From contig CH464491.1 of NCBI GenBank assembly GCA_000002445.1, forward strand, positions 64,001 through 128,000: a DNA stretch of 64,000 nucleotides, written 5' to 3'. The position numbers and the translations under genes are program-made. Shown piece by piece: positions 2,666 through 46,095 of the stretch (the first letter of the stretch is position 1; each line of letters begins with the position of its first letter). This DNA comes from Trypanosoma brucei (lineage: Eukaryota). The notes under the pieces were generated by a model. The model did no database searches, was not told the origin of the DNA, and saw only the letters and a program-made list of their open reading frames with translations.

Positions 2666-3448
2666 TTACGACCGGGTCAAACACGAAGCCGCATTTTTGC
2701 ATGCCTTCATCCGCTGAGCGAAACACATAGCAAAGTCTCGTTGGGGTTGCGACGGACTAACCTGAGGGCGATTGGCCCGGACAAGATTCTCAGCATCCGC
2801 ATATTTCATATTCCCATACGTGGTGAGGTAGCACATGACCATCATCCAACTGCGGCCCTTGCCTGCTTTGCAATGAATATAAGCGGTCTCCTTCCTCACA
2901 TCAACACACTGATAAATCTGCTCAACTGCAGAAACAACCACATCGAAAGAGACGTCTGCTGTCGCGTCCTCCAATGGAACATGGCAGTATTCGACATCCG
3001 GATTAACATATTGGCGCCAGGCTGTCTCATCAGCGAAGGTTATCACCGGAACACCAAAACCCTGTATTTCAATTTCCTCCATGCACGCAACAACAAGTCC
3101 TAGTTCCTGATCTTTAGTCCTCAGCTGTCCGGCAAGTTGCACCAAGTGGTTTCCACTGTCTCCAAACTTTGTGACAACGGGAAGAGCTCCAAGTATGCAC
3201 CTATCCGTTATGAAGTTCCAGTGGAGAAAATCGTGCACAAGACCCATCTTTCGTCCGAAATAACCGGGTACTACTGTGGCGGTTAATGATCCCCAGAAGT
3301 AAGCCGCTTTCCGTGCAGATGTCAGCGCTTGTTGCATATAATCCACCACATCATCACTATCCCCAGCCGGAGGAGATCTCATCTCATCCAGTTTTCGGGG
3401 TTGCATATCGACAGGGCCGTCATCAGGACAACAATTAGGCGAACTCAT
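2666..3448 (-). CDS. Dual-specificity / PTPMT1-like protein phosphatase with a CX5R active site
   Basis: The motif IHCKAGKGRS (HCxxGxxRS P-loop) lies in the C-terminal half of a 260-aa ORF. Hydrophobic beta strands precede it, as in DUSP/PTPMT1 folds. Confidence 0.6.
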   Translation of the reverse strand: MSSPNCCPDDGPVDMQPRKLDEMRSPPAGDSDDVVDYMQQALTSARKAAYFWGSLTATVVPGYFGRKMGLVHDFLHWNFITDRCILGALPVVTKFGDSGNHLVQLAGQLRTKDQELGLVVACMEEIEIQGFGVPVITFADETAWRQYVNPDVEYCHVPLEDATADVSFDVVVSAVEQIYQCVDVRKETAYIHCKAGKGRSWMMVMCYLTTYGNMKYADAENLVRANRPQVSPSQPQRDFAMCFAQRMKACKNAASCLTRS

Positions 3449-16376: not shown

Positions 16377-17723
16377 TTAAAACTGCCGACGAGGGTTCAG
16401 GACTGCTTTACCCCCACCATAACCTCCGTTACGACCCACTGGAGGTCCCTTAACGTAATTCTGAGCAGCAATCATTTGACCCCGTGGCACCGGCAGAAGA
16501 GGTGGTCGCACCATTTGCCTCCCGCCTGTTTGGCGAGGTGTTAAACCCACCGCTGGACGCTGCCTCCCATGGCGCGCATCTCGTTTAGACATGTCCTGCA
16601 CAGCCGCTGTTGGTAAATAACCACTCGCCAAGTAACATATACCCTCCCCTATCTCCGGTTTCAATGGAATTCCATCCCGCATCTTCGAAAGTGGAACGCT
16701 CTGCGGACCCCTTAAATCAGTTTCCTCAAGGAACACGCCATGCTTCATCCACTGTATGAAACAAAGCGAATCACCGGTACCATCGTCAACGGGTGAAAGA
16801 AGTTGACCAAAACCAAATACAGCGGAGCACCGCTGCAGAACAACGATAATTATAACTGGTCCCCTGTCCATTACTTTATAAAAAGCACGCTGGTTCTCTG
16901 GCTCAGTTCGAAAAAAACCGGCTTCGACGGACCTCTCAGCATCCTCTCTCGACATCACCACAACAAAGTAATAAGCGTCCAAGTTTACAACACTCGTGTC
17001 CAGTGGTGCATGAAGAATGGGCATGGTTGCCAATCCATCACCCTTCCGCACTTCCGTGTTGTTAACGTGTTTCCCGTTCCCACACTGATCAATACACGCT
17101 TTCAACTGAGGTCCGAGGTCAGCGACTGAACTAGGCGGTTGTAACAACGATTCAGTGATTGATCGGAACATTGCGGGTGTGGGAATGATGTCACTAAGGG
17201 CGACATGTATGAAGTTGCGGGGGAAAAATTCCATGACAGGCGGTACTAAAAGCAACTTTGCGGGATCCTGTAACACGACCCAACCGCGTCCCGTGCACGC
17301 ACCTGTGGGATCCGTAAAGATGTCGGCTTCCGCTACCATGTCGAATGCTTCAAAAAAGCGCCCGAGCATTTCAGCTGTTGTGTTCGGGGGTAAATTCGAT
17401 ACATACGCGCAAACATAACCGCCGGTGACGGGGACAAGATCACCAGTTGCGGGATCGGGTACGTATGCCTCGTAATGCGCATATGGAAGTAATCTGCATG
17501 CAGTGACACCACGCTCTGTAGCATCAGTAGATAACGGTACTTCCTGTGGTGGGACGTTACCTGGATCAAAGAGGAGAGTCCCCTCAGGAAGTCTCGGATA
17601 CAAAGCTAGACGACCATCCTCGAGGAGATTAAACTTCTCACCATTGACATAAACAAACGAAGAATCACTTTCTTTCTCCTCCATTTTGTTTTTGTGTGCG
17701 TGATAGTTGGTAGTGTAATACAA
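16377..17723 (-). CDS. RNA-binding protein with an N-terminal RRM-like fold and a YTH-like domain; the C-terminus is Gly/Arg/Pro-rich
   Basis: RRM-like segment: VCAYVSNLPP...GRGWVVLQ. The segment YYFVVVMSREDAERSVEAGFFRTEPENQRAFYKVMDRGPVIIIVVLQRCSAVFGFGQLLS aligns residue by residue with the YTHDF core ([27 protein letters not shown]..AY......[23 protein letters not shown]). The tail reads RQTGGRQMVRPPLLPVPRGQ...GGYGGG. Confidence 0.6.
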   Translation of the reverse strand: MYYTTNYHAHKNKMEEKESDSSFVYVNGEKFNLLEDGRLALYPRLPEGTLLFDPGNVPPQEVPLSTDATERGVTACRLLPYAHYEAYVPDPATGDLVPVTGGYVCAYVSNLPPNTTAEMLGRFFEAFDMVAEADIFTDPTGACTGRGWVVLQDPAKLLLVPPVMEFFPRNFIHVALSDIIPTPAMFRSITESLLQPPSSVADLGPQLKACIDQCGNGKHVNNTEVRKGDGLATMPILHAPLDTSVVNLDAYYFVVVMSREDAERSVEAGFFRTEPENQRAFYKVMDRGPVIIIVVLQRCSAVFGFGQLLSPVDDGTGDSLCFIQWMKHGVFLEETDLRGPQSVPLSKMRDGIPLKPEIGEGICYLASGYLPTAAVQDMSKRDARHGRQRPAVGLTPRQTGGRQMVRPPLLPVPRGQMIAAQNYVKGPPVGRNGGYGGGKAVLNPRRQF

Positions 17724-18442
17724 GCCAGTCTCACCACAATTACCGATTCAATCCCCTTTCCCAAATCCCTCGCTCGAACTAGGCTGCTACCTTCAGAGTG
17801 TCCCTCCACCACAAATATATATATATATTTATTTATTTATTTATTTGTGCCTGTGTGTATGCAGGATTGTACCAACACACAAAACTGCCTGATACGTAAG
17901 AAATAAGTAACAAATTAAATATACCCGCGCTACTCCGTTACAGGTTATACAATCCGACGAAATGAGGGATACTCTTTCCCTCTTCCACTCCCTAAATCTC
18001 TCCTCGCCTGAGCCCCTGCACCTCAGTCACCTTCCCTTCACCCCCTTTCTGGCTCCTTTTTTGATTCTGTTTTAGTCCAATCAAAACTTTTTAACCTAAG
18101 CCCCGGTTCGGGAGACGTCGTAGAAAACGAAGGAAGGGAGAGATAATCAGCAGGTACGTGATGAGAAAAAAAAAAAATAAAGATCAAGAAACAAAACAAA
18201 ACACAGCGCTCGACAATGACATTAGCTTGCCGCACGAAGCCAACGGCACCGTTATTAAACCAAAATTGTTAACCGCTTAGGAAGATTCTTCTTTTATCTT
18301 TGTTTTTTCCCTCCATAAAACAGTCCACACATTTCTGTCTTTCATGTTTTATCTGGAACAAAAACACGCAAACAGGGACAGGTCCTCAGAATCACTGCGA
18401 TATAAACATATGGAATGTCACTTTCACATACTCCAACCCCAA

Positions 18443-20242
18443 TCAAGTACCTTCCCGCTCATCTGCAGTGATTCGTCTCTCAAATATGGCCTCAACGGCA
18501 GCACCACACAAAAGTCGCACCACCGGTAATACCCGACACACCACATATTTCCCAGGGACTCCACTCAAATTCGTTACCCTATAGAAAATAAGTTCTCTTC
18601 CTCCACCATGTTTCGCACTACACCAACGCCACAGCGGGCCGAGAAGAGGTGCAAATCGCATATCAGTTAGCAAAAAAGTGACATGTGTTACTTCGTTAGG
18701 TTGAATCCTAAAATACGTTAGCCCATTTACACTGTTGGCGTACATGAAGGCAAACTGTGCAATAAACTCCTTCACCGTCCCCTCGTCAGGTATCCCAATG
18801 CAATGGCAAACCTCAGAGATCGAAGTTACATTTAAATCTCCCATGTCCGCCACGGTTGCTAACTGATGAGTGGTGGAAACCAACCCAACACATCCGGACA
18901 CAATCGTGCGGCACTCGTTTGCAACTCTCAGCATATTTGAAAAGGAATATGGTCCCAACGATGGGGCGCCCCAGCAACTGGTGCTGCGAACCACCATAGT
19001 TGAACGATCGATGGAGCACTGCGGTGCAGTAAGAACTTCGAGTCGGAATGCAGAGAGGGAATTCATCTCGGCGAAAGAGCAACCGGGAGGGCACACGTCA
19101 GGAAAGGCAATCGAGAACGCAGCGCAAAAACAGTCAAAGAGATCCACATTAGGTGATAACACTAACACGAAAAATACTTCATGAGTAATTTTCGAAGCGT
19201 CTTCGATAGCCTTCCGAAGTACATCCTCAAGGATACGCTGCTGTGCTCCTCTGTCTGATGTAATACAGGCGTCGTACACCCCGCACGTACACGCCCAATA
19301 CTCCACATCTCCTTCAGACTTACGAGTTTGGAATGCTGCTTTGTTTTCATTCATTTGTAAATCCTCGAAGATAAGTTGATCAAGAGAAGGAAGGTGCTTC
19401 ATCCGATCCGATGGAAATGTAAAGAGCGACAGTTGCTGCAGTATGTGCTTATCGGCAACCTTCTCCTCATCTGTTTTTGCACGTTGAGCAACTTTAAGTA
19501 CCGCATGACCGGAAGGAGAGTAGTCATTGTTATCCACAATTACAGGGCGCAGTTCAACAACCTCCAAACGCTTCTCCCTAAAGAGAGGACAATCAAGCAC
19601 AATTGTCTCAAACTCGCCTCCTTCACCCGCTGCGTGCGCACCATACAAGCGCTGAATACTCTCTAGTTCTGGACGTGCAGCAAGAAGGGACGTGCCAAGA
19701 TGCTTTTGCGGTACAAGACCTACTGTTGCCGTCTTGACCAGTATAGCTTCCACGCGCAGAATGGTGGCGATGTCAAGGATCTCCTCAGCGGGCCGCTGCC
19801 ACAAAAATGCAAGTGAACGGAGTTTCAAGCGGCTGCACACATCTTCCACGCGGTGGCGCTGGTAATTAGACAATATGGCGCCCGAAGTGACCGCTTCCAC
19901 CTCAGGAAACTCCTCCTTCACAGAGCGAAGCAGCCTGTAGAGGGCTTCAATTTCATCGCCTTCATCCCGCTTGCTCGTGTAATGAAGATCCTGCACCTTC
20001 GCCTGGTCAGCGCGAATGTAGCCTCTGCGAAACGGCAGTTGCATGCACGCGGCGATTTCCTCCACAACCTCATGACCTACTGTTTGGAAAGAATAAGAAT
20101 CAACCTCATGCACAGTTTCCCGTCCATCGTCGCATTCGGGAGCGATGTTCGCCACAACTACTGGGTAGTGCCCATATCGCATCGAGAGGATAATGGAGAG
20201 TATACTATCCTTTCCCCCGGAGATGAGGGCAATAGTCTTCAT
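18443..20242 (-). CDS. DPH6: Diphthine-ammonia ligase (DPH6/ATPBD4-like): an N-terminal alpha-ANH PP-loop domain plus C-terminal YjgF/RidA-like modules
   Basis: The N-terminus MKTIALISGGKDSILSIILSMRYGHYPVVVANI matches the DPH6 PP-loop start (MKVVALISGGKDS...). At 599 aa it is consistent with the fused two-domain eukaryotic enzyme. Confidence 0.75.
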   Translation of the reverse strand: MKTIALISGGKDSILSIILSMRYGHYPVVVANIAPECDDGRETVHEVDSYSFQTVGHEVVEEIAACMQLPFRRGYIRADQAKVQDLHYTSKRDEGDEIEALYRLLRSVKEEFPEVEAVTSGAILSNYQRHRVEDVCSRLKLRSLAFLWQRPAEEILDIATILRVEAILVKTATVGLVPQKHLGTSLLAARPELESIQRLYGAHAAGEGGEFETIVLDCPLFREKRLEVVELRPVIVDNNDYSPSGHAVLKVAQRAKTDEEKVADKHILQQLSLFTFPSDRMKHLPSLDQLIFEDLQMNENKAAFQTRKSEGDVEYWACTCGVYDACITSDRGAQQRILEDVLRKAIEDASKITHEVFFVLVLSPNVDLFDCFCAAFSIAFPDVCPPGCSFAEMNSLSAFRLEVLTAPQCSIDRSTMVVRSTSCWGAPSLGPYSFSNMLRVANECRTIVSGCVGLVSTTHQLATVADMGDLNVTSISEVCHCIGIPDEGTVKEFIAQFAFMYANSVNGLTYFRIQPNEVTHVTFLLTDMRFAPLLGPLWRWCSAKHGGGRELIFYRVTNLSGVPGKYVVCRVLPVVRLLCGAAVEAIFERRITADEREGT

Positions 20243-25216: not shown

Positions 25217-27814
25217 CTAAGCAATGGTTGCAGTATCGCCCTCTTCACCAAAAATGACAAGAGGGAACAGAGGTTCCGGATCCTCCACATCCAAAAACCT
25301 AAACGCCGTACCGAGGGAACGTCCATTAAGTGAGAAACTAAGTTCCTTGCAGTTAAAGTCAAGACAGACGGTAATTTGGGACCCGGAAGCGTATGAGCAA
25401 CCGTACGGCACCCCGCTCGCATCATTCACGCTTGCAGCTATTGTTCCATTAGAGCGAAAGAGATAAGCTGGTGCCAAAGCGCGGCGTAGTCCGAAATATT
25501 TTGTTGTCACCCCGACAGCAAAAGTTTTGTCTGATGCGTTAGTTAATGAACGTGAAGCGCCGACACGAACATTAAAAAGCAATTTGCCCTCCGTTACTCC
25601 AACGGCTCCGAGAGCAAACATGGGAATTGTCACCACTGGAGGGCGGGTGCCCCGACGCCTCGTTTCTGCATTTATCAACTCCCGGGCTCTCGAAGCGTCA
25701 CCTAAACAAATGTTTCCCCTATTCGACACAACGACATTGCCGCTCCGTACGGTGTCCCAGTAGTGCACAGGTTTTAGGAGCGAAGAATTTAACTCGAATT
25801 CAGGTGACTGAGGAGAGGACAACTCAAAGGGGGCCTCGCGGCTACCATGATAGGAAACAGAATTTGTAACAGATAAACCGCCGTCGCTTGATTGCTCCAC
25901 GCTTTGATCCACCTGAGCACAACCCACCATGTTATCATCCTCATCTGTTAAAGTATTGACAGGTAATCCAAACTTTCTCACTGGTACACGTGAAAGGTTT
26001 GTTTCAGCCCCACTCGCTACATGCAGTGAAGGGGGTAAGTCAGTACAGGGGAAAAGATCACGAAGCTCTGCTTGGGGGGCCGCCCACTGACAGTCGGTCG
26101 AAAGACAACCGAGATGGCCACTGAATTCGGCAGAGAAACTGCCCCGTATAGGATTAATGGGTTTTTGCTCTTTACAACTGATCTCAGAATCAATTGATGG
26201 ATCTAACGGTTCAAACTCGCAACTCCCTTGCTGAACGGTTAGTCCATGCGCATCATAAGACTTCTTCAGCACATCTGAATGCACCAGCCGAACACCGGTT
26301 TCCGCCTTCACGGTGCCTCTCATGACAGGTTCACGGGGCTTTGACTCTCCACCCCTTTCCGCTGAGGTTACTACCTTCCGGTGACGCTCCGGATATGAAC
26401 CCCTAAATTGTGGAGCGCACATCCCACGTTCCTGCAAGGAAACAACCGTAGAGGGCAAGGGATTGCAAAGTCCATCGCTGCACACACCGAGGGAAGTGAG
26501 TATCTCCTGGTATAGTGAACTTGGAAATCGCTCGCGCGTGTGGATGTCATCCAAGTTTGGCGTTATGAGATATGTATCGCAGGAAGCATTCACATCGCCT
26601 TTATCACTTTCATTTGGAGCAGGATATTCAATGCTTTCCGATAAAGATAAGGTATATTGCGTGTCCCTGGCAGATTGGTATTCAGCAGGCCTACTGGACG
26701 TACCTCGGTGGTACCATTCCGTTTCTCCCTGCGACTCCCCTGCACCCGTCACCGGTGGCACCTCACCGTCGTCACATAAGTACATGTGAAACGAAACAGA
26801 GTCGTCGGAGCATTCACTATCTTTCCTCCCACTCTCACACACTTTTAAGGCACTACCTTTGAAAGGACCTCCCGCCACCACAACAAAAGCTTCATGCGCA
26901 CTTCTGGGCTCGGCTCCTCCAAACACTGCTTCATCCAATAATAGCTGCACGGTGTCCACCAACTCTCGACGCGCAGAGTCCTGGTCATCCTCAGTATCAG
27001 ACCTGATTGCATTCTCTTGGGAAATGAGTTGAGATACGGTACCATTTTCCGGAAGCGGCACTCCGTCATCAAGCGACGCAGTACCCAACTTTAGCGATTG
27101 GGAATCTGCACGCCGTGTTGACTGGCTCAACCCTTTTACGTCTAACCCAACAGACGGGCACCGGGGTGGTGGAGTAACTGTCACTTCAGCAACCACAGTG
27201 TTCAGGAGGGCCAAACGAGGTTCGATGGGAAGCGGCTCAGCGTCGAGCAACTTAAGACCTTCATCGTCGCAGCCTTGAGAGCGGTCAACTTCCATTGCAG
27301 CGCCACGGCGCTCATCCTTCATGGGAAATTCACTGGGGGGCGATATAACATCCTCAGTTATCTTTATTGCTCTAACATCACCGCGGCCACGACTCAAAGA
27401 AAAATCGTGGACAGCAGTAAAATCCTGCCGAATAGCTCTCACTTTGGATATGTACCTGCTTTCCGGTGCTTTGTTACGAGCATCTAAACTGACCTCATTA
27501 TCACCACACTTCACAGGGAGAAAACCAGCCCTCCGGCTACTTCCATTTGCACTGCGTGAGAAAGGGGTCAGTTTGCAATAACATGTTTTCTGTTTACCTT
27601 CTTTCTTACAGTTACGGTTAATAATGCTATTAGAATGCCGACTCCGCGCAAACTTTGCCCTCATTTGATGACTCTGTCCAAACCCCTGGTCGCTCGACTC
27701 TGGTCTTTCTGCTGTTAATGGCATCGATGCGGCCCCTGATGCACGTCTTCCACCCATCTTAAGCGGAAGCGGGTCCTTTCCACCGAAGTTGGTGTCGCAG
27801 GGTAAACTACCCAT
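25217..27814 (-). CDS. Hypothetical protein, 865 aa, with a C-terminal SPRY (B30.2-like) domain
   Basis: The C-terminal ~150 aa (KLLFNVRVGASRSL...FAVGVTTKYFG...YLFRSNGTI...VPYGCSYASGSQITVCLDFNCKELSFSLNGRSLGTAFRFL) have the beta-sandwich motif spacing of SPRY domains. The remainder is Ser/Pro/acidic-rich and disordered-looking. Confidence 0.55.
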   Translation of the reverse strand: MGSLPCDTNFGGKDPLPLKMGGRRASGAASMPLTAERPESSDQGFGQSHQMRAKFARSRHSNSIINRNCKKEGKQKTCYCKLTPFSRSANGSSRRAGFLPVKCGDNEVSLDARNKAPESRYISKVRAIRQDFTAVHDFSLSRGRGDVRAIKITEDVISPPSEFPMKDERRGAAMEVDRSQGCDDEGLKLLDAEPLPIEPRLALLNTVVAEVTVTPPPRCPSVGLDVKGLSQSTRRADSQSLKLGTASLDDGVPLPENGTVSQLISQENAIRSDTEDDQDSARRELVDTVQLLLDEAVFGGAEPRSAHEAFVVVAGGPFKGSALKVCESGRKDSECSDDSVSFHMYLCDDGEVPPVTGAGESQGETEWYHRGTSSRPAEYQSARDTQYTLSLSESIEYPAPNESDKGDVNASCDTYLITPNLDDIHTRERFPSSLYQEILTSLGVCSDGLCNPLPSTVVSLQERGMCAPQFRGSYPERHRKVVTSAERGGESKPREPVMRGTVKAETGVRLVHSDVLKKSYDAHGLTVQQGSCEFEPLDPSIDSEISCKEQKPINPIRGSFSAEFSGHLGCLSTDCQWAAPQAELRDLFPCTDLPPSLHVASGAETNLSRVPVRKFGLPVNTLTDEDDNMVGCAQVDQSVEQSSDGGLSVTNSVSYHGSREAPFELSSPQSPEFELNSSLLKPVHYWDTVRSGNVVVSNRGNICLGDASRARELINAETRRRGTRPPVVTIPMFALGAVGVTEGKLLFNVRVGASRSLTNASDKTFAVGVTTKYFGLRRALAPAYLFRSNGTIAASVNDASGVPYGCSYASGSQITVCLDFNCKELSFSLNGRSLGTAFRFLDVEDPEPLFPLVIFGEEGDTATIA

Positions 27815-28201: not shown

Positions 28202-29836
28202 CTACACATTAACACCCGTACTAATGGGCGGGGGCGCCAGAAGTCCCTCCCGACGAGACATGCCCCGCACCTTTTGCTCAATCAGAGCTCGGGCTGGGTG
28301 TGTTGCCACCATCAACTCCACACCTTGATTGAGCGCCACGTTGAGTATCTGGCGGTTGGACGAGATAACAATAGCCCTGAGGGCATCACCAAGCCCAAAC
28401 ACAAGCAAATTGCGCTGCGACACTTTGCTCGTTGACGCCAACAACGAGACGTGAGTAATGGGGGAGTCACACAATTCTACGTATTGACTGCTCGCATGAA
28501 CAACAGAACAGCACTGCAACAACGAAAGTGCGCGGCGTAACTCCCGTGGTCCAGCGATGGTCTCCAAGATCCACCGGAACTCCGCCAATGTAACATCAGC
28601 AACAATCCAATTGAGGCAGTTGTTCTGGTCCCCTATTTCCCGTCTCTTTGCTTGATCTTCGCGCATCCTCCGAACTACCACACTTTCGCTCAACGGCTCA
28701 CGAGGTGACTCCCCATCAGCAGTTAAATCGACCAGCTTTTGGAGCCAAGAAACTTCAACGCTAACCACAGACGGATTGTCCACGGAGCACCGGCCGTTCT
28801 TTTGTATATGCCCCCGAAGCTCCTTCTCCATGACGTGTACATCGAGCCAGCGGCTGTATTGGTTGAGGATGGGTTCGATGTGTGAGCGCACGCACGGATC
28901 GCTTTTGTCGCGCCGCTGTTGCTCTGCCAAGACACGAAACCCACGAAGTGCTGCAACATTCGACTCCACCGACTCCGCAAAACACGCCTCTGAACAAAGA
29001 GCCACTAACGCCGTTGTGTCAAAACATACATACTTGGGTAACGATACACGTGGTGGAAGAAAATCATCACGCCTCCACAGAGCTTGAAGGGGTCCGCCAG
29101 CAGCTCTGACTTTCAGCTCTGCAATACTAACGGGGCGCGCGCCCATGCTGCGAACTGCATCCGCCATCGTGGCTGGAGGAATGCAGCTAAATAAAACAAC
29201 GACTTCCGGTACTTGCATGAAGGGAAGTTTACTCTCTTTCGCAGCCAAGAGCAGACGAGTAATGGGGTTTTCCCACCCACTTTTGTTCGCCTCATTCTGC
29301 AGACTGTACGTCGAGGCCGCTCGCACCTTCACCCAACGCAAACCACCACACGAAACAAGGTCCACAGGCACCGTTTCCCACCCTCCACTGCTTACTGCGA
29401 CTCGAAACGAAGCACATACCTTCGTCACATTCGGTTCGTTTTCCAGTGCCGTCACCAATGTTTCAAGATAACGCATATCAACCTGATGAGTGGCAGGATT
29501 ATTCAGCGCATTTTCGGCGTGATGTTGGGGTGTCTCCTTCAAAAACTCCTCAACCATAAGCAACCCCTTCTCAATGCGATGCCGCAGCCGTGACAAGTTA
29601 TTTACGGACGCGTATCGCTCACTATTGCCCTCCAGCCTGTCGCGAAGCTTTGTTAACTCCCTCAACAGCTTCTCGTGTGAAGAAACCCCGTCACTAACAT
29701 CACTACTGCCGCAATGAGTTCGACTGATTGAAGTACTCCCACTGCTGCTGAAGTGGCCGCTGAGGTTCAACGATGTGTGATCGCCGTCAGCGCCAAAAGC
29801 ATCCTCGTCAATTGACTGCCATTCATAAATATTCAT
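28202..29836 (-). CDS. Hypothetical conserved protein, 544 aa
   Basis: 1.6-kb minus-strand ORF with globular-like composition. I recognise no motif. Confidence 0.5.
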   Translation of the reverse strand: MNIYEWQSIDEDAFGADGDHTSLNLSGHFSSSGSTSISRTHCGSSDVSDGVSSHEKLLRELTKLRDRLEGNSERYASVNNLSRLRHRIEKGLLMVEEFLKETPQHHAENALNNPATHQVDMRYLETLVTALENEPNVTKVCASFRVAVSSGGWETVPVDLVSCGGLRWVKVRAASTYSLQNEANKSGWENPITRLLLAAKESKLPFMQVPEVVVLFSCIPPATMADAVRSMGARPVSIAELKVRAAGGPLQALWRRDDFLPPRVSLPKYVCFDTTALVALCSEACFAESVESNVAALRGFRVLAEQQRRDKSDPCVRSHIEPILNQYSRWLDVHVMEKELRGHIQKNGRCSVDNPSVVSVEVSWLQKLVDLTADGESPREPLSESVVVRRMREDQAKRREIGDQNNCLNWIVADVTLAEFRWILETIAGPRELRRALSLLQCCSVVHASSQYVELCDSPITHVSLLASTSKVSQRNLLVFGLGDALRAIVISSNRQILNVALNQGVELMVATHPARALIEQKVRGMSRREGLLAPPPISTGVNV

Positions 29837-33938: not shown

Positions 33939-34820
33939 CTAGTTTCCGTAACATTTGACCTTCTTCTTGTCCTCCATTTTGTAAATTGCATCCTTGGGTA
34001 TGTTATATTTCCCGGGTAGCATCTCGACCAGCTGCTCGACCACATTTCCCTGAATGTCAATCATGCTTTGCTTTAACTCTTCAGAAGTTGTGACACCAGC
34101 ACCGCAAGAAAACATCTTTTTCCACTCCCTCGAAAGGTCTTTCAGGTTTAAACCGAACAAGTCCATACCCTTCACCGTTGTCGTCATCTTCTTATTTTTA
34201 CGCTGTGAAACCTCAATAAGAACAATACGCTCAATACCTTTCTTATTTCCGCTTCCTTTTACAAGGCGCTCAAGCCGTTCCCGCTCCGTCAGCACCCGCC
34301 TCTTCCGACCCCGTTCCTCAGCCTCTGCGAGTTCCTTGGCATGCTCAAGCAACCACGGGCGACATTGTTCATACATCCCACTGAACTCACACATTTCTGC
34401 TGGAAATGTGCAAATGGGGCAGTAAAGCACATCCACTGGTTCGTATCGCGTGACAGTCATTCCCTCAGTAAGTTTCTGTGCAAGTGCCTCCTCCTCTCCT
34501 CCAGAAGGGAGCAGTGCTTCTTCTTTATTATTATTTACTCTCTCTTGATCAGCAGCAGCTTTCTCCTCGGCAGCATTCGGCTCCTGACCATTTCCCTTAT
34601 TTTTTTTCCCACCCTTTCCACCCTGAGTTTTGTTGAGTTTATTCCCACGGTATTCTTTTTTCTTAGGAGCCGGATCCTCCGCATTGGGCGCGTCTTCCGC
34701 TTCGTCACGTGACTGGTCCTGTTCCACCTGAGGCGCTTGCTGTTGTTCTTCCTCATCTAATGCATCTTCTTCCGACTCATGGTGCAGCGCTGCTTTGCTC
34801 TTTTTCTTATTGCGTCCCAT
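33939..34820 (-). CDS. DENR: Density-regulated protein (DENR)-like translation reinitiation factor with a C-terminal SUI1 domain
   Basis: The Zn-binding segment YEPVDVLYCPICTFPAEMCEFSGMYEQCRPWLLEH matches DENR PLRVLYCGVCSLPTEYCEY...CKQWLEKN. The C-terminal SUI1 fold reads KKMTTTVKGMDLFGLNLKDLSREWKKMFSCGAGV...IDIQGNVVEQLVEML. An in-frame Lys/Glu-rich N-terminal extension runs from MGRNKKKSK at 34820. The alternative start is MTVTRY at 34460. Confidence 0.6.
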   Translation of the reverse strand: MGRNKKKSKAALHHESEEDALDEEEQQQAPQVEQDQSRDEAEDAPNAEDPAPKKKEYRGNKLNKTQGGKGGKKNKGNGQEPNAAEEKAAADQERVNNNKEEALLPSGGEEEALAQKLTEGMTVTRYEPVDVLYCPICTFPAEMCEFSGMYEQCRPWLLEHAKELAEAEERGRKRRVLTERERLERLVKGSGNKKGIERIVLIEVSQRKNKKMTTTVKGMDLFGLNLKDLSREWKKMFSCGAGVTTSEELKQSMIDIQGNVVEQLVEMLPGKYNIPKDAIYKMEDKKKVKCYGN

Positions 34821-35921
34821 CGCTATGTTACTGAACCGTCCACTGGAATCCTTGCGAAACCGGTGATTTCCTTCACTCGGTTGAAGTCTCCTTTGTTTCC
34901 TAAAATTGAAGAACCGAGTTAATAAAGTATAAGAAAATGTGAAGAAGCAGAGGAAAGAGAAGTTACGTTTTTCCTTTCCTTTCCTTGTTATTTCCCCCCC
35001 CCTCCCCTTAAAGGAAACCACAACCATTTGAACAGGTACCACATGTTGATCATCATACTCATCATCATTATAGCAATATCAACTTGAGGACGGTCGAAGG
35101 CGAAATAACATTTGAAAGGGAAATGTAGTATGACATGTTATGAAAATGTGGAAAATTGATAAAGATGTTAGTAGTAATAATAATAGAATGAAATGAAGGG
35201 GATCAATGGCATGACATCTTTACCCGAACCTCACTGCGGATAGCGGCCAAAACATCACAAATTTCCCTCATCAATTTCACAACCGCCCTGCGCATAAAAT
35301 TTAATGCACATACCTCCCACAGCATCAACTGCGAGAGAAAAATATAAAGAAAAGATGAAATAAAGAAAAAAGATACTGTAGCTACAATGACAATGACATG
35401 TCAGCGGCTACCCTCACGCGCAGATTCACATTCTCACCCGCATGTATACTTATGCATTTGTACACACATATACTCAGTAAAAAAAAAAAAGTAAGTACCC
35501 CACCTCAGCAAGCACACACACGCACATACCACCAAACACAACTTCAGCAACACGAACTAAAAAAAAAAAAAGATACACGTCGCCATCACCCAAGAAAACA
35601 ATATAATAGAAAGATGTCAACCGGTTGCAACACGACAGGTGAGCCTGCAGAGATATTTTACACCCTGTGTTATTGCCCGAATAGTGGTTGAATGAGAATG
35701 ATTTACAAAAAAAAAATTAAAGGTCCAAAGAAACGTTCAAAGTATAGAGGAGAGCTTCGTACCCAAAAAGAGGCATAACAGTGCCAATAATGCCTCCAAT
35801 AATATATGCATATATACGTGTGAAGCAGGCTATGCAAACGCCGAGGTGAGCATAACCAACAACTTCTTGTAATCCCACTTTGCTTCATTGCTTTCCCTCA
35901 CCCCCCCCTTTAAATAGTCAA

Positions 35922-39044: not shown

Positions 39045-41891
39045 TCAAGTCTTCTCACGGCGCTGCATTTTTGCTGGTGGCCTCGCAGCTGATGCCAGGC
39101 TGTGAACAAATGGCGGCTGACTGGTAAGTTCCGGAGGGACCAAAGAACGCGTTACGTAATCAATGTAATATGTCCTTCTCAGCATATCATGGACACGGTG
39201 AGTGTGGCGCTGCGTGTAAGCCAGTAACGCTTCAAGCACTTTAGAAATGGCAGGCATTTCTGCAAGCGTGGAAAAGTGGAAAGCCCTCAAAACAGTGTGT
39301 ATGACAAGACTAGCAACCCCACAGTGCCTGGCATTGGTGATCCATTCTCGAGTAAATTGCAGCAACCGCACCAACTGTTCCTCATTCAAGGCAGGAAGTA
39401 CTACTTTACATAGTGATTCTTCACAACCCTTCGCATCCTTAATGGACCACCGCAGCACCACTTGACGTAGATTACGCGGATGGTTTAGTTTCAGTGCAAG
39501 CATGAAAGCTTCCACGTATTCACCCTTACGCAACGCATTGGCCAATTCTTGTTCCTTCAATATTACGTCCCGCCGCTCATGTCGCACACGTTCCGCCTCC
39601 TCTGCCGTATAATCTTCCGTCGCTATGAGCACACCATCGGCGGAACCAGAGATAAAAGTTATATTTCCACCTTCAGGCTCAGAAACACAAAGCGCCCAAA
39701 TCTTCTCTTCATGCGTCTCCCCCGACCACACAACCTCCGCCACTGAAATCGCCCACACACGCAAAACTCCCTCGGCGTTGCCCGTCACGAGTTGTGTCCC
39801 ACCGTTGAAAAAAGAAAGCTGAAGCACCGGTATTCGATCCACCTGTAAGGCCTTGACGCACGTCAATGAAACCAATGACCATAAGCGAACACTCCCATCA
39901 TTAGACGCGGATGCTAATACACGATCAGTGGGCGAAAATGCCAGCGATGACACGGCGCGACGGTGGCCCTTCAGTGAAGCATCGCGAAAGAGTTTCTTCC
40001 CAGAAACGGTCCACAAGTTAACATTCTTATCCTTTCCTGCCGTTGCAACGTATTGGTCATTGGGAGCCACAGCCAAGGTATGAATGGAACCTTCATGTGC
40101 TGAATTGATACCAGCACGGTGAGTGAAAGTAATGGGGAGCGTTTCCTCTGATGAGCTCTTCCGCTTTGTAACAAGGGGCAGTACGTGCGTCCCCACATCC
40201 CAAAGGCATAAATTCTCATCCGTGCCGACGGAGAATAGTAAAAAGTAGCTATCGGACTGCTTTGCATTAAAGGATATAAAAGTAATGTCCGCATTGTGGC
40301 CCTTCTCACCTATTGCAATGGTGCTCCACGTCTCTGTCGACCAAAACCGAACCGTACAGTCCTTCCCCGCGGTCGCAATCAAGCACGTATCAACAGAAAC
40401 AGCGCATGTTAATACGATATCACTATGACCTGACAGACACACAGATGAAAGGCAACCTTGAGAAGGGTAGCAACGTAAATCCTTGCTGTTCGTGACCACC
40501 ACTCGATGAATGGGAGAATGAGGTGGAAATAGCTTCACGTCAAGAACCTGATCCAAAAAGCCCACCAGGGTGACGTCCGGAACGTAAGTTGCCTTTTCTG
40601 GGTGTGGCACCAAAAGTGAAATGTTAAAGGAAGCGTCTGCAGTGTACAACCGTGATGGGTTGTCATCTTCCACTACACCATGAAGTAAACCCACTTCATG
40701 CGTCCCTCTGGGTTTGTTTGCCACAACGAGACTACGGACTGCTAATTCACCATCGGATTCCTCGACATCACTACCAACTTTACGCCGCCTCCGGGAAAGT
40801 TGTAATGGTTCCGTTACACTAACGTTATATGTCGATATAACTCCATCCATTGCACCAATATGAAGCCGAAAGGCTGACTCGAATAACGCAGAAGAAACAT
40901 GCTCCTTTACTACAACGGCACGCAGTTCCTCCAATCCGGTTTTCGTCATCTTGTTAATGACAACTTTTCGGTCCCTTCCAACGGAAAGGAGGTGTTTGTT
41001 GTCTGCCGTAAGACAAATTGCTTCAACAGCTGCCACATGAGGCCGAGCATGGGCAACTAATGTTTTTTCGACAAAGTCAAACACAGCAACGTGCCCTTCA
41101 AAGCTCCCAACACAAATAAACTCCTTTGCAGAGTTCACGTAGAAGGAATGTGCAAGACATGCTGAAGGAGAGTGCAAATTGTGTGTGAGGTAATGTTGAA
41201 ACACATCCCACACCTTCACCCCTCCGTCTGTTGAGCCCGAGACGAGATGAGACCCATCAAAAGTGAACTGCACGACAGAAATTGCCTGCTGCGATGCCGT
41301 CCAAGACCGAAGCGGTGAGAGTGTGCAGATGAGATTTGTATCACTCACAGCCTTTGTAACTGAAGACGATATTATTCGCTGATCTCCTCCATCACCTCCC
41401 TCCTTCGTCTCGCCCACCTCAACCAAATTGGGGTAGGCGCCTTCAACTCGTAAAACATAAATTTGCAGAGAACGTGTTCCCACAGCAATGTAACTTCCAC
41501 AAGGAACTGCAGCATCAACTACTTTCGTATCTTCCCCATCCCTCACCTCATCGCGCTTCGTTTTCCTACTTTTCCCGTCGGCAACAGAACCGTGAGAGTG
41601 TTTGGTAGTAGCGGATGGTTTTGCAATGGGAGCTACCGTGACGGCATCAATGCGAAGAATCACGTCTTCTACAGGTAATGTATACGACGCCAACCGTTCG
41701 CCGTCACTTGCGCGTAACACATTAATTGTATCACCACATGCCGCCACGAGACACTCCACCCCATTCAAACACGGGGAATGCAATGAAGAGGAAATTTGAG
41801 AATTTGGAAGCAGCAACAGAGACGCGATGTTCCCACCGCTGTATAGTGGCACCTGCGACCACTGAGTACGGAAGCAGTTCTTTCCTTCCAT
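39045..41891 (-). CDS. UTP13: U3 snoRNP / SSU-processome WD40 protein Utp13 (TBL3-like)
   Basis: Multiple WD40 repeats (e.g. LSGHSDIVLTCAVS, GHRRAVSSLAFSP...DGSVRLWSL). The C-terminal Utp13 domain reads LRKGEYVEAFMLALKLNHPRNLRQVV...LNEEQLVRLLQFTREWITNARHCGVASLVIHTVLRAF, matching the Utp13 C-terminal signature (...LLRFAVQWNTNSRHCHVAQRVLHTVL). Confidence 0.65.
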   Translation of the reverse strand: MEGKNCFRTQWSQVPLYSGGNIASLLLLPNSQISSSLHSPCLNGVECLVAACGDTINVLRASDGERLASYTLPVEDVILRIDAVTVAPIAKPSATTKHSHGSVADGKSRKTKRDEVRDGEDTKVVDAAVPCGSYIAVGTRSLQIYVLRVEGAYPNLVEVGETKEGGDGGDQRIISSSVTKAVSDTNLICTLSPLRSWTASQQAISVVQFTFDGSHLVSGSTDGGVKVWDVFQHYLTHNLHSPSACLAHSFYVNSAKEFICVGSFEGHVAVFDFVEKTLVAHARPHVAAVEAICLTADNKHLLSVGRDRKVVINKMTKTGLEELRAVVVKEHVSSALFESAFRLHIGAMDGVISTYNVSVTEPLQLSRRRRKVGSDVEESDGELAVRSLVVANKPRGTHEVGLLHGVVEDDNPSRLYTADASFNISLLVPHPEKATYVPDVTLVGFLDQVLDVKLFPPHSPIHRVVVTNSKDLRCYPSQGCLSSVCLSGHSDIVLTCAVSVDTCLIATAGKDCTVRFWSTETWSTIAIGEKGHNADITFISFNAKQSDSYFLLFSVGTDENLCLWDVGTHVLPLVTKRKSSSEETLPITFTHRAGINSAHEGSIHTLAVAPNDQYVATAGKDKNVNLWTVSGKKLFRDASLKGHRRAVSSLAFSPTDRVLASASNDGSVRLWSLVSLTCVKALQVDRIPVLQLSFFNGGTQLVTGNAEGVLRVWAISVAEVVWSGETHEEKIWALCVSEPEGGNITFISGSADGVLIATEDYTAEEAERVRHERRDVILKEQELANALRKGEYVEAFMLALKLNHPRNLRQVVLRWSIKDAKGCEESLCKVVLPALNEEQLVRLLQFTREWITNARHCGVASLVIHTVLRAFHFSTLAEMPAISKVLEALLAYTQRHTHRVHDMLRRTYYIDYVTRSLVPPELTSQPPFVHSLASAARPPAKMQRREKT

Positions 41892-42293: not shown

Positions 42294-44120
42294 CTAAGCG
42301 ACCCATTCATCCTCCGCTGAGTTTTCTAAACCCGCAAGACCTGGAATCAGTTCATCAATTTGAGAAACGTTAATGGTAGATGCACCGCGGCGTCGAAGTG
42401 CCTGGGACACCGCGTCCTGCACCGTTAGATGCTCCCTAATGGGTTCACGGCGGCGCTTACGTGTCGAATGCGACTCTTCAAGTCTCTCAATTTCCTCCTT
42501 CGTGCGAGCAGCGCCGAGATTCCAACTTTCCCCATACAGCGCCTCGCCTACTTTTTGGCGTCTCAAGCGTTCCTCGTTATCAAGCACCAGATATGGTTCA
42601 AGGTCTGTCATGTCGTCTAATTCTGGATCCTGCAACACAATAAACTCCCAAGGCAGTGCGAGGGTACGCTCATTATCATACAATACCTCGGCTAGACAGG
42701 GATCTATTTTGAATTTGGCCTCTGCTGCACCTTCTGTCTTCACTACAGCTTCTTCCTCAGGCAGTTGAGGTGCCGGCACCACATCATCAGGGTTGACAGC
42801 CTCCATATCGAAATCGCGACGGATATCTAACACATTCGGATCACGTGTCATTAACATACGATAATAATCGGTCATTTCGGAAAGAGACATCCCTGCATTA
42901 GGTACAGGTGGTGCTCCCTTCTCAGGTGTACTCGGTTCCTGTCGCACGGGTTCCTGCTTGACCCGCTCAAGTTTCACCATAATTTTGTCCTCCTCTTCCT
43001 TCACACTTGCCCGCGCCTTCGACGAGTCGATCGGCTTGGTGTTGGGCAGGCCAAGAATCTGCAACTGTTGCTGAGGGGTTAATGTAGTTAAATCTAAACT
43101 AGCGTCACTTGGAGTTTTCCCCTCTAACGCACAGTGGCAAAGTAAAAAATGCCTCCACTTTTCGCAGCGATCTGGGGTGCTTGGGGTTGAAACCTTCGCT
43201 TCGGCCACAAGCTCGTAATACATTGCTGACAATTGCCGCAGCTCTGCATCACGCTTGTCCCCATCATACTTTTTCGTAGCACTGGTGAAAGCTGGTGGAA
43301 GTGAGCTGTCATCCCTTGTATACTTATCAATACTATCCAAGGCTGCTGTGCTTGTGGCCGCAAATTCGTCCAAACGCCTAGATATGGTCCCTGCGGTTAA
43401 CCTCACGAAACCACAAACTTCGTCAGGGGATCGCGGGATGTTAAACATGTAACATGCCACTAAAAGGGCGGCAACGCATACGCCAAGCGGCCGCCGACCG
43501 CACGCTATCCAGTCGTCATGCATGGCACGCAGAACCTTTAGTGCGCAAACCACTACTGATCTCGTCATTTGCCCTAAATTCATTTGCTCAGCAAACCTAT
43601 GCACGACACATGATGGGTCAATGACAGGTACCTCAGTCCGGGTAGCTTCGCAAACGAGATGCATGTATGATAATATATCATATGGACTCTCCCCGGTGGC
43701 ATCCGCGAAGTCGAACACCATATGAGATGTTCGTTCTCGACGGCACATGGCATACAAAACAGCGCAAAGAATAGCTGGTCGGGCGCCAGACACCGCGTTA
43801 AGACTAACTGCGAGTTTGTAAAGCCCCAGTGCTGCCTCCACCATGTCATCACTTACATCTAATTGTCGTGCAATTGTCGCCATCCCGCGACGAGCGGCCT
43901 CGATTGAAGGTCTGGCGGAGGGCATACGAACACTAACGGAGCCACGTGTGGGTCGCAAATGGCCAAGAGCCCGTAACCTTCCACCTTTATCACCACGTGC
44001 AAATATGGGATCCAATTCGAGTTGAGGATCCTGCACGATATCACCGCATAAAGTACAAGTGATGGTGCCGCGGGCGCGGTCTACATACTGAGCTGAGGTA
44101 GGATGCGAACAACTAGACAT
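42294..44120 (-). CDS. BRF1: TFIIB-related factor, most likely the BRF1 subunit of TFIIIB: an N-terminal zinc ribbon, two cyclin-like repeats and a long acidic C-terminal extension
   Basis: N-terminal CSH...C..C ribbon. The TFIIB core pattern reads IEAARRGMATIARQLDVSDDMVEAALGLYKLAV...GARPAILCAVLYAMCRRE, with a second repeat VVVCALKVLRAM...RRPLGVCVAALLVACYMFNI. At 608 aa it is too long for TFIIB itself but is consistent with BRF1. Confidence 0.55.
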   Translation of the reverse strand: MSSCSHPTSAQYVDRARGTITCTLCGDIVQDPQLELDPIFARGDKGGRLRALGHLRPTRGSVSVRMPSARPSIEAARRGMATIARQLDVSDDMVEAALGLYKLAVSLNAVSGARPAILCAVLYAMCRRERTSHMVFDFADATGESPYDILSYMHLVCEATRTEVPVIDPSCVVHRFAEQMNLGQMTRSVVVCALKVLRAMHDDWIACGRRPLGVCVAALLVACYMFNIPRSPDEVCGFVRLTAGTISRRLDEFAATSTAALDSIDKYTRDDSSLPPAFTSATKKYDGDKRDAELRQLSAMYYELVAEAKVSTPSTPDRCEKWRHFLLCHCALEGKTPSDASLDLTTLTPQQQLQILGLPNTKPIDSSKARASVKEEEDKIMVKLERVKQEPVRQEPSTPEKGAPPVPNAGMSLSEMTDYYRMLMTRDPNVLDIRRDFDMEAVNPDDVVPAPQLPEEEAVVKTEGAAEAKFKIDPCLAEVLYDNERTLALPWEFIVLQDPELDDMTDLEPYLVLDNEERLRRQKVGEALYGESWNLGAARTKEEIERLEESHSTRKRRREPIREHLTVQDAVSQALRRRGASTINVSQIDELIPGLAGLENSAEDEWVA

Positions 44121-45985: not shown

Positions 45986-46024
45986 GCTTGAAAATTAGAG
46001 CTGTTGTGCAACACAAACAGAGAC

Positions 46025-46095
46025 ACACACACACACACACAAAGGCAGAACCGTACACCTATAAGAAGAAAAAATAAGAAATACGTAAGTTTCGA
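46025..46095 (-). promoter_or_regulatory. Polypyrimidine / (TG)n tract upstream of the Era-GTPase gene; candidate splice-acceptor region
   Basis: + strand: acagagacacacacacacacacaaaggcagaaccgtacacctataagaagaaaaaataagaaatacg. It is pyrimidine-rich on the coding strand, about 40-110 nt upstream of the ATG at 45985. Confidence 0.45.

What the first reader, a model, noticed from the sequence alone, without database searches (positions are those of the whole stretch)
16377..17723. RRM protein carrying a YTH-like domain whose aromatic-cage positions appear substituted
Residues around YYFVVVMSREDAERSVEAGFFRTEPENQRAFYKVMDRGPVIIIVVLQRCSAVFGFGQLLS...FIQWMKHGVFLE follow the YTH-domain core almost position by position, including the F.i.kS.eD..rS...g.w.T, GPV.llF and FGFG..L.S landmarks. 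However, the first cage tryptophan (YTHDF2 NIWCST) is Phe here (GFFRTE). The region aligning with the second/third cage Trp (VWSQDKW) is DSLCF. Upstream there is an RRM-like fold (VCAYVSNLPP / GRGWVVLQ), and downstream a Gly/Arg/Pro-rich tail. A YTH-like fold with an altered m6A-binding cage, fused to an RRM, would be an unusual reader-like architecture in an organism whose m6A biology is atypical. Its ligand could be something other than m6A.
Basis: partly seen in the sequence, partly recalled or inferred. Interest (0 to 1): 0.65.

Follow-up and report, generated by a model that had tools for sequence, protein, structure and literature searches.

The report
Known trypanosome RRM protein, cage-less YTH domain
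The gene is Trypanosoma brucei Tb927.11.350 (G1-IP2/RBP43), a known subunit of a cap-binding translation-factor complex, and its second domain is a real YTH fold that has lost the tryptophan pocket other YTH proteins use to read methylated adenine, so it probably does not read m6A in the usual way.

Summary
The ORF at 16377..17723 (-) has its real CDS at 16377..17684 and encodes a 435-aa, 47.5-kDa protein. It contains a conserved beta-rich N-terminal region, an RRM, a linker, a YTH-fold domain and a basic Gly/Arg/Pro tail.

YTH homology is solid:
- hhalign against canonical YTH domains gives 99.3% probability, E 4e-20.
- 18 of 24 orthologs hit Pfam YTH and no other family.

The m6A cage is dismantled:
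- YTHDC1 W377 aligns with Phe258.
- The loop carrying W428 and L439 is 8-15 residues shorter in all 24 kinetoplastid orthologs.
- N363 and N367 are not kept, and the domain is acidic.

Most kinetoplastids, including Bodo and Leishmania, have a Trp one residue after the Phe. T. brucei has Arg there.

The protein is not new. It is Tb927.11.350, also called G1-IP2 or RBP43. It was reported in 2014 as an EIF4E5/EIF4G1 complex subunit with a predicted YTH domain, and later as a PABP2-preferring interactor. I found no published account of the cage loss, and m6A reviews state that trypanosomes have no YTH proteins.

The most likely role is an RNA or protein adaptor module, not a canonical m6A reader.

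The parts
16377..17684 (-). Complete CDS of Tb927.11.350 (G1-IP2 / RBP43): 435 codons plus the stop codon (16377-16379)
   Evidence: ATG at 17684. 100% identical over 435 aa to T. brucei TREU927 XP_828127.1 / Q387L6. TriTrypDB header in the supplement of PMC6075789: Tb927_11_v5.1:80290-81597(-), length 435, the same 1308 nt and the same strand. Calculated mass 47,513 Da, matching 'the 47.5-kDa protein'.
17685..17723 (-). 13 extra codons of the mechanical ORF (TTG start); not part of the protein
   Evidence: ORF listing rule. The annotated protein and all orthologs start at or after the ATG.
17415..17660 (-). Conserved beta-rich N-terminal region (residues 9-90; FVYVNGE..LLEDGRL..FP.G..DP..PP.EVP..GVT..L.P..HY)
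   Evidence: Invariant or near-invariant columns across 21 kinetoplastid orthologs. AF2 pLDDT 82-97 with seven short strands. No Pfam family. Well-superimposed PDB matches (rmsd ~2-3 A) span only ~80 columns, the RRM part.
17187..17414 (-). RRM (residues 91-166); RNP2 = AYVSNL, RNP1 = GRGWVVLQ
   Evidence: Pfam RRM_1 29 bits, E 1e-6. AF2 shows a beta-alpha-beta-beta-alpha-beta topology at pLDDT >90. Foldseek matches RBM38, hnRNP A/B, Hrp48 and Musashi at TM 0.74-0.80, rmsd 2.0-2.4 A.
16980..17186 (-). Poorly conserved, predicted-disordered linker (residues 167-235)
   Evidence: pLDDT 21-33. Variable length and sequence among orthologs.
16614..16979 (-). YTH-fold domain without a canonical m6A cage (residues 236-357)
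16908..16913 (-). Codons for Phe258-Arg259. Phe258 aligns with cage Trp 1 (YTHDC1 W377, YTHDF2 W432). Arg259 aligns with YTHDC1 S378 and is Trp in 14 of 24 kinetoplastid orthologs.
   Evidence: Profile-profile alignment. Per-ortholog table: position 1 is F in 19 of 24; the next position is W in 14, R in 5, and F, I, L or Y in one each.
16764..16796 (-). Shortened beta4-beta5 loop (residues 297-307, SPVDDGTGDSL), where canonical YTH domains carry cage residues 2 and 3
   Evidence: The distance from the FG[YF] Gly to the I.W Trp is 16-24 residues in 24 kinetoplastid orthologs and 28-35 in 9 canonical YTH domains. 22 of 24 have no Trp in the loop. YTHDC1 W428 and L439 align to gaps.
16380..16613 (-). 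Basic Gly/Arg/Pro-rich C-terminal tail (residues 358-435)
   Evidence: 42% G+R+P, pI 12.0, net +12, four RG/GR dipeptides. It is the only basic segment of the protein. pLDDT <35.

Best explanation
The gene is Trypanosoma brucei Tb927.11.350, also called G1-IP2 or RBP43. It is a cytoplasmic subunit of the EIF4E5-EIF4G1 cap-binding (eIF4F-like) complex. That complex also holds the capping-enzyme-like protein G1-IP, and the protein associates preferentially with PABP2. The protein has a kinetoplastid-specific beta-rich N-terminal region, one RRM, a disordered linker, a YTH-fold domain and a basic RG/P tail. The YTH-fold domain descends from canonical YTH domains; its nearest relative outside kinetoplastids is a Euglena multi-YTH protein that keeps the cage Trps. 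In kinetoplastids the domain has lost the m6A pocket. Trp 1 is Phe. The loop that carries Trp 2 and Trp/Leu 3 is deleted. The base-contacting Asn residues are gone, and the surface is acidic rather than basic. I infer that it no longer reads m6A by the canonical aromatic-cage mechanism. It most likely survives as a docking module for protein or unmodified RNA, as in S. pombe Mmi1. RNA contact would then come mainly from the RRM (Tyr94 and Trp135 on the RNP motifs) and the basic tail, giving the EIF4E5/EIF4G1 complex its mRNA contact or selectivity. Shown here: identity, architecture, fold and cage loss. Taken from papers: complex membership and PABP2 preference. Inferred: no m6A reading, and the adaptor role.
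For: Identity: 100% match to the TREU927 protein. Same length, strand and CDS size as Tb927.11.350. 47,513 Da. Names and partners come from PMC4105752, PMC5750579, PMC6075789, PMC6597758, PMC8575317 and bioRxiv 10.1101/2022.05.10.491326. YTH fold. Cage loss: in hhalign, W377 aligns with F258, S378 with R259, N363 with a gap and N367 with Ala, and W428 and L439 fall in gaps. The loop is 16-24 residues against 28-35 in canonical domains. Charge: the T. brucei YTH-like core has pI 4.9 and net -4; the kinetoplastid median pI is 6.1; YTHDC1 and YTHDF2 are at pI 9.3-9.8 with net +6 to +8. The best PDB sequence relative is Mmi1, a YTH domain known from the literature (my own knowledge) not to bind m6A. 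Kinetoplastids lack METTL3, METTL14 and METTL4, and writer and YTH losses co-vary across eukaryotes (PMC8868631). This fits relaxed selection on the cage. The domain is still well conserved, with 71% mean column identity among Trypanosoma, so it retains some function.
Against: No binding experiment was possible. I could not inspect model coordinates, so the orientation of Phe258 and of the following Trp/Arg relative to the former pocket is unknown. A conserved Phe-Trp pair in most kinetoplastids could form a remodelled pocket. T. brucei does have m6A, notably in VSG poly(A) tails, and this protein prefers PABP2, so a non-canonical reader role is not excluded. The RRM and the N-terminal region are themselves acidic (pI about 4.3), so RNA binding by the protein is assumed from domain type and from the papers' description, not shown here. 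Loss of the writer does not prove loss of reading.
Confidence: 0.72

Rival explanations
1. The domain is still a reader of methylated adenine, using a remodelled pocket built from Phe258, the neighbouring Trp (in most kinetoplastids) and other residues. Through the PABP2 association it would read m6A in poly(A) tails, for example on VSG mRNA.
For: YTH fold retained and conserved. An aromatic residue is kept at cage position 1 in 20 of 24 orthologs and a Trp follows in 14 of 24. The invariant Asp of the RDG motif (YTHDC1 D476) is kept in T. brucei. G1-IP2 is among the most PABP2-specific interactors (PMC6075789). m6A sits in VSG poly(A) tails and no reader is established.
Against: Two of the three cage residues are deleted in all orthologs and the Asn contacts are lost. 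T. brucei, the organism with the poly(A) m6A, has Arg instead of the Trp. The surface is acidic. The gene is reported as non-essential in RNAi screens, whereas VSG mRNA stability is critical.
Confidence: 0.12
2. The cage-less pocket recognises a different modified nucleotide of the trypanosome cap-4, such as N6,N6-dimethyl-2'-O-methyladenosine at position 1. It would cooperate with EIF4E5 and the capping-enzyme-like G1-IP.
For: The protein lives in a cap-binding complex together with a guanylyltransferase/methyltransferase protein. Removing the loop that closes the cage would enlarge the site, which a dimethylated N6 would need (inference). Cap-4 contains modified adenosine (reference listed; otherwise my own knowledge).
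Against: Purely circumstantial. No conserved polar or aromatic constellation was identified. The acidic surface is unfavourable for binding triphosphate-linked cap nucleotides. EIF4E5 itself binds cap-4 (title of PMC6582342).
Confidence: 0.05
3. The C-terminal domain is not YTH but another PUA-like fold (EVE, ASCH or PUA), or the similarity is due to chance.
Confidence: 0.02

Closest known systems
TbG1-IP2 / RBP43 (Tb927.11.350), the '47.5-kDa protein' of the TbEIF4E5-TbEIF4G1 complex (Freire et al. 2014, PMC4105752); Leishmania ortholog LINF_250008000
   Same: It is the same gene. Sequence, length (435 aa), mass (47.5 kDa), chromosome 11 position and strand all match. The ferredoxin-like RNA-binding domain plus YTH domain were already predicted by Phyre2 at 97.7% and 98.1% confidence.
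   Different: Nothing differs. What this analysis adds is residue-level evidence that the m6A cage is dismantled, the distribution of that state across kinetoplastids, and the conserved N-terminal region.
S. pombe Mmi1 YTH domain (PDB 5eim, 5dno, 6fpx)
   Different: Mmi1 keeps Trp at cage position 1 and a Trp in a 28-residue loop. It has no RRM, is nuclear and acts in RNA decay. The kinetoplastid domain has physically lost the loop.
Canonical m6A readers: YTHDC1, YTHDC2, YTHDF1-3, Arabidopsis CPSF30-YTH, Toxoplasma CPSF4-YTH
   Different: Phe replaces W377/W432. The loop with W428/W486 and L439/W491 is deleted. N363 and N367 are not conserved. The domain is acidic rather than basic. It is fused to an RRM and sits in an eIF4F-like complex.
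Euglena gracilis multi-YTH protein (EG_transcript_9322, P0030)
   Same: It is the nearest relative outside kinetoplastids in 1.8 billion representatives (E 4.6e-13; taxon). It belongs to the same phylum, Euglenozoa.
   Different: It carries several tandem YTH domains with Trp 1 and the loop Trp intact and a 31-residue loop. It has no N-terminal region or RRM of the kinetoplastid type.
EVE / ASCH / PUA-like domains (PH1033, L. major 2ar1, Zymomonas ASCH, THYN1)
   Different: They are clearly weaker structural matches than YTH, and there is no sequence-profile match.

Membership tests
YTH domain (Pfam PF04146) | Sequence-profile match at or above the curated threshold | tested here: met
   The T. 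brucei result is borderline: 17.5 bits in the full-length protein, 22.4 bits for the domain alone, against a cut-off of 22.1. At family level it is clear: 18 of 24 orthologs match (best E 3.1e-10), and hhalign gives 99.3%, E 4e-20.
YTH domain (Pfam PF04146) | YTH three-dimensional fold, closer to YTH than to other PUA-like folds | tested here: met
m6A-reading YTH domains (functional class) | Aromatic cage residue 1 (Trp; YTHDC1 W377, YTHDF2 W432) | tested here: not met
   It aligns with Phe258. The position is F in 19 of 24 kinetoplastid orthologs and never W.
m6A-reading YTH domains (functional class) | Aromatic cage residues 2 and 3 on the beta4-beta5 loop (YTHDC1 W428/L439; YTHDF2 W486/W491) | tested here: not met
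   They align to gaps. The loop is 16-24 residues against 28-35 in canonical domains, and 22 of 24 orthologs have no Trp there.
m6A-reading YTH domains (functional class) | Polar residues that hydrogen-bond the adenine (YTHDC1 N363, N367; residue roles from my own knowledge of the YTHDC1 structures) | tested here: not met
   N363 aligns to a gap and N367 to Ala. The columns are not conserved.
m6A-reading YTH domains (functional class) | Basic RNA-binding surface | tested here: inconclusive
   The core has pI 4.9 and net -4 (kinetoplastid median pI 6.1), against 9.3-9.8 for YTHDC1 and YTHDF2. Some canonical-type domains in the comparison set are also neutral or acidic. Surface electrostatics could not be computed.
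m6A-reading YTH domains (functional class) | Preferential binding of m6A RNA over unmodified RNA | not testable with these tools
   This needs ITC, fluorescence polarisation or EMSA with the recombinant domain.
RRM (Pfam PF00076) | Profile match above threshold, RRM fold, RNP1/RNP2 aromatic residues | tested here: met
   29 bits against a cut-off of 20.7. Foldseek TM 0.74-0.80 to RBM38, hnRNP A/B and Musashi. RNP2 is AYVSNL with Tyr94. RNP1 is RGWVVLQD with Trp135 but no aromatic at RNP1 position 5.
G1-IP2 / RBP43 orthologous group (Tb927.11.350) | Same locus and sequence as the named T. brucei gene | tested here: met
   100% identity to the TREU927 protein. Length 435 aa, 1308-nt CDS on the minus strand of chromosome 11 as in the TriTrypDB header. 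Mass 47.5 kDa.
EVE / ASCH / PUA | Better structural or profile match than to YTH | tested here: not met

The most novel reading that the evidence does not exclude
The kinetoplastid YTH-fold domain of RBP43/G1-IP2 would not be a dead relic. It would be a re-tooled reader of a lineage-specific methylated adenine. One candidate is m6A embedded in poly(A) tails, reached through PABP2. The other is the N6,N6-dimethyladenosine of cap-4, reached through EIF4E5 and G1-IP. The pocket would be opened by the loop deletion and lined by the conserved Phe (plus Trp in most species). This would give trypanosomes their first direct YTH-type reader, working by a mechanism unlike the three-residue aromatic cage.
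Probability: 0.08. Interest if true: 0.85.

Novelty: already known. Interest (0 to 1): 0.35.

Why it matters
Trypanosomes have m6A, much of it in VSG poly(A) tails, but no METTL3/14 writer and no accepted reader. Recent reviews state that no YTH-domain protein exists in trypanosomes and put forward the RRM protein TRRM2 instead (PMC12905994). This gene shows that statement is incomplete. A genuine YTH-fold protein is present throughout kinetoplastids, was noted in 2014 in the translation-factor literature, and associates with PABP2 and a cap-binding complex. The residue-level result cuts the other way. The m6A cage has been taken apart, most completely in T. brucei, so the protein should not simply be promoted to 'the missing reader'. 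This gives a cheap, well-defined experiment (does RBP43 discriminate m6A, poly(A)-m6A or cap-4 nucleotides?). It also offers a natural example of what a YTH fold becomes after the m6A writer is lost.

Tried and rejected
- Identity with TRRM2, the proposed trypanosome m6A reader: rejected. TRRM2 is listed under a chromosome-6-type identifier (Tb06.4M18.1180) and as a protein with three RRMs. This gene is on chromosome 11.
- EVE/ASCH/PUA assignment: rejected.
- The search for homologous proteins with the 24-sequence domain alignment A3 returned nothing at E<=0.001, not even the query species. I treated this as a tool limitation. I used the exhaustive representative search and cluster look-ups instead.
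- Literature searches for Q387L6 and for YTH together with Tb927.11 gave no relevant text. The link came from 'YTH domain' plus 'trypanosomatid'.
- The Nature version of Viegas et al. 2022 is not held. The preprint mentions neither YTH nor readers.
- The cap on papers was reached before I could check PMC11754739.
- I could not superimpose coordinates to see where Phe258 and Arg259 point, because models are not exposed. Cage assignments therefore rest on profile-profile alignment and loop lengths.
- The N-terminal region gave no PDB match beyond the RRM.

Full report
**What is at the coordinates**

The minus-strand ORF 16377..17723 is real. The ORF tool starts it at a TTG. The first ATG is at 17684 and gives a 1308-nt CDS, 16377..17684, encoding 435 aa.

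**Identity**

- The 435-aa protein is 100% identical to T. brucei TREU927 XP_828127.1 / EAN79015.1 / UniProt Q387L6. The same sequence occurs in T. equiperdum.
- Its calculated mass is 47,513 Da.
- A MaxQuant table in the supplement of PMC6075789 carries the TriTrypDB header 'Tb927.11.350 ... Tb927_11_v5.1:80290-81597(-) | length=435'. CDS size, strand and length all match.
- If the window is the TREU927 assembly, it corresponds to roughly chr11:63,914-127,913. This is an inference from the offset.
- Tb927.11.350 is 'the 47.5-kDa protein' of Freire et al. 2014 (PMC4105752). It was renamed TbG1-IP2 in 2017 (PMC5750579) and RBP43 by Clayton (PMC6597758).
- The Leishmania ortholog is LINF_250008000.

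**What is already published**

- Freire et al. purified the protein with TbEIF4E5, TbEIF4G1, and either 14-3-3 II or the 117.5-kDa guanylyltransferase/methyltransferase protein G1-IP.
[quoted passage not shown] They noted that it was the only non-essential member of the co-purifying set in a genome-wide RNAi screen.
- Zoltner et al. found G1-IP2 among the most PABP2-specific interactors. The reverse pull-down enriched PABP2 19-fold and PABP1 4-fold.
- In Leishmania it co-purifies with DRBD2, EIF4G1 and G1-IP.
- In bloodstream-form T. brucei it appeared in 2 of 3 EIF4E5 preparations.
- The m6A literature appears unaware of this. [quoted passage not shown]

**Architecture**

Ten Trypanosoma orthologs and fourteen more kinetoplastid or environmental orthologs share one layout. 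The named ones include Bodo saltans, Leishmania (Viannia) and Strigomonas.

1. Residues 9-90 form a strongly conserved beta-rich N-terminal region. It has no Pfam family, and well-superimposed PDB matches cover only the RRM part of the model. With 21 sequences AF2 models it at pLDDT 82-97.
2. Residues 91-166 form an RRM.
   - Pfam gives 29 bits against a cut-off of 20.7.
   - Foldseek gives TM 0.74-0.80 to RBM38, hnRNP A/B and Musashi.
   - RNP2 is AYVSNL and RNP1 is RGWVVLQD.
3. Residues 167-235 form a variable, disordered linker.
4. Residues 236-357 form the YTH-like domain.
5. Residues 358-435 form a basic tail with 42% G+R+P, pI 12 and net +12. It is the only basic part of a protein whose overall pI is 5.4.

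**Is the fourth module really YTH?**

The single-sequence Pfam evidence is borderline. The full-length protein scores 17.5 bits and the domain alone 22.4 bits, against a cut-off of 22.1. Family-level evidence is decisive:

- A profile of the Trypanosoma domains hits 33 PDB sequences at E<=10, and all are YTH domains. The best are Mmi1 (1.7e-4, full domain) and CPSF30-YTH (6e-4).
- The same profile, run exhaustively over 1.84 billion representatives, finds only 19 proteins at E<=1e-3. Sixteen are kinetoplastid-type orthologs and three are canonical YTH proteins. Those three are from Euglena gracilis (4.6e-13), an MMETSP transcript that matches YTHDC1 at 1e-35, and Heterosigma (3.3e-7).
- hhalign of 24 kinetoplastid domains against 9 canonical YTH domains gives 99.3% probability, E 4e-20, over 120 columns.
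- 18 of 24 orthologs hit PF04146 at E<=0.01 (best 3.1e-10), and no other family is hit.
- The AF2 model has domain pLDDT mostly 80-92. Its Foldseek top 50 are all YTH; YTHDC2 scores TM 0.82, rmsd 2.6 A.

**The cage**

The profile-profile alignment gives these correspondences with YTHDC1:

| YTHDC1 residue | T. brucei equivalent |
|---|---|
| G375-V376-W377-S378-T379 | G256-F257-F258-R259-T260 |
| N363 | gap |
| N367 | Ala |
| W428 | gap |
| L439 | gap |
| D476 | D337 (retained) |

The spacing to the conserved Pro and Asn of helix 2 agrees with this.
- Across 24 orthologs, position 1 is F in 19, I in 2, and L or Y in one each. It is never W.
- The next position is W in 14 orthologs, including Bodo, Leishmania, T. 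cruzi, T. grayi, T. rangeli and T. melophagium.
- That position is R in T. brucei, T. congolense, T. conorhini, Strigomonas and one environmental sequence, and F in T. vivax.
- The Trp is thus probably ancestral. It was lost in the salivarian trypanosomes and independently elsewhere.
- The segment between the FG[YF] glycine and the invariant I.W tryptophan is 16-24 residues in the kinetoplastid family. In canonical domains, Mmi1 included, it is 28-35. 22 of 24 orthologs have no Trp there.
- Cage residues 2 and 3 are therefore deleted rather than substituted.
The YTHDC1 row agrees with the alignment printed.

**Surface charge**

The T. brucei YTH-like core has pI 4.9 and net -4. The kinetoplastid median is pI 6.1 and net -2. 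YTHDC1 and YTHDF2 domains are at pI 9.3-9.8 with net +6 to +8. By my own reading of the alignment, the basic residues that hold the RNA backbone in YTHDC1 (K361, R404, K472; roles from my own knowledge) align with non-conserved, mostly non-basic positions. R475 is Arg in T. brucei but Gly in most other Trypanosoma.

**Interpretation**

Shown here: a true YTH fold, conserved across Kinetoplastea, with the canonical m6A pocket taken apart.

From the literature: kinetoplastids lack METTL3, METTL14 and METTL4, and writer and YTH losses co-vary across eukaryotes (PMC8868631). The protein sits in an EIF4E5-EIF4G1-G1-IP complex and prefers PABP2.

Inferred:
- After loss of the writer, the cage decayed while the fold was kept for another job.
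- The closest precedent is Mmi1, which is also the best PDB sequence match. Its YTH domain binds unmodified RNA on a different face and does not read m6A (my own knowledge of that literature).
- I therefore favour a role as an adaptor subunit. RNA contact would come mainly from the RRM and the basic tail. The YTH-like domain would serve as a docking surface for a protein partner (EIF4G1, G1-IP or PABP2) or for unmodified RNA.
- High conservation within Trypanosoma (71% mean column identity) argues that the domain is functional rather than a pseudodomain.

**Rivals**

- A remodelled reader pocket remains possible. It would use the conserved Phe, plus Trp in most species, to read poly(A)-embedded m6A or cap-4 N6,N6-dimethyladenosine. 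The cap and poly(A) context of the complex makes this attractive.
- Nothing here supports it directly, and T. brucei, the species with the documented poly(A) m6A, is the one that has lost the Trp.
- Assignment to EVE/ASCH/PUA, or to chance similarity, is excluded.

**Novelty and score**

The gene, its partners and the presence of a YTH domain are published, so the finding is already known as an entity. I could not find the following in the searchable literature:
- the cage analysis;
- the observation that the state is kinetoplastid-wide, with a further loss in T. brucei;
- the Euglena link;
- the contradiction with current m6A reviews.

These points are useful to specialists but incremental, so interest is moderate to low.

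**Context**

The gene lies in a run of minus-strand genes from 133 to about 46,000, consistent with a single polycistronic unit. Its neighbours are ordinary housekeeping genes. Nothing in the neighbourhood bears on its function.

Noticed in passing
window 17415-17660 (-), residues 9-90 of the same protein: A strongly conserved, kinetoplastid-wide beta-rich N-terminal region precedes the RRM (FVYVNGE..LLEDGRL..FP.G..DP..PP.EVP..GVT..L.P..HY). It has no Pfam family, and well-superimposed PDB matches cover only the RRM part of the model. AF2 models it at pLDDT above 90 with 21 sequences. It may be the EIF4G1- or PABP2-docking part of the protein.
   Followed up: partly
literature (PMC12905994 against PMC4105752): A 2025 m6A review states that no YTH-domain protein has been identified in trypanosomes and names TRRM2 as the only candidate reader. 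A 2014 paper on EIF4E5 had already reported a YTH domain in this protein. The two literatures do not cite each other on this point.
   Followed up: yes
P0030 (Euglena gracilis EG_transcript_9322), found: A euglenid protein with three or four tandem YTH domains that keep both cage tryptophans is the nearest relative outside kinetoplastids (E 4.6e-13). This suggests the cage-less kinetoplastid domain derives from a canonical euglenozoan YTH.
   Followed up: partly
window 46000-64000: G+C drops from about 0.45-0.51 to 0.32-0.38, and long ORFs become sparse. ORFs of at least 200 aa appear on the plus strand (52307-53011, 53462-54067), in contrast to the uninterrupted minus-strand run from 133 to 45985. 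This may be the end of a transcription unit or a strand-switch region.
   Followed up: no
window 54956-55615 (-): A second, small (219-aa) single-RRM protein gene with a strong canonical RRM_1 match (E 1.9e-21) lies in the low-GC region. It is unrelated in architecture to RBP43.
   Followed up: no
window 133-45985 (-): Neighbouring genes are ordinary. They include a dual-specificity phosphatase (2666-3448), a diphthamide-synthase-like ATP-binding protein (18443-20242, immediately upstream), a SPRY-domain protein (25217-27814), DUF1308 (28202-29836), DENR/SUI1 (33939-35042), Utp13-type WD40 (39045-41891), a TFIIB-repeat protein (42294-44120) and a GTPase (44837-45985). There is no functional clustering with RBP43.
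   Followed up: partly
window 18163-18200 and 17815-17850 (minus-strand reading): Upstream of the CDS there is a long polypyrimidine run (tttgttttgtttcttgatctttattttttttttttct). It is a plausible trans-splicing signal for this gene. An (AAAT)n/(AT)n microsatellite lies about 130-165 nt before the ATG.
   Followed up: no
tool behaviour: the search for homologous proteins given the 24-sequence alignment A3 returned no hit at E<=0.001, not even the query's own species. The single-sequence search and the exhaustive profile search both found the family. Negative results from that mode should not be trusted.
   Followed up: no
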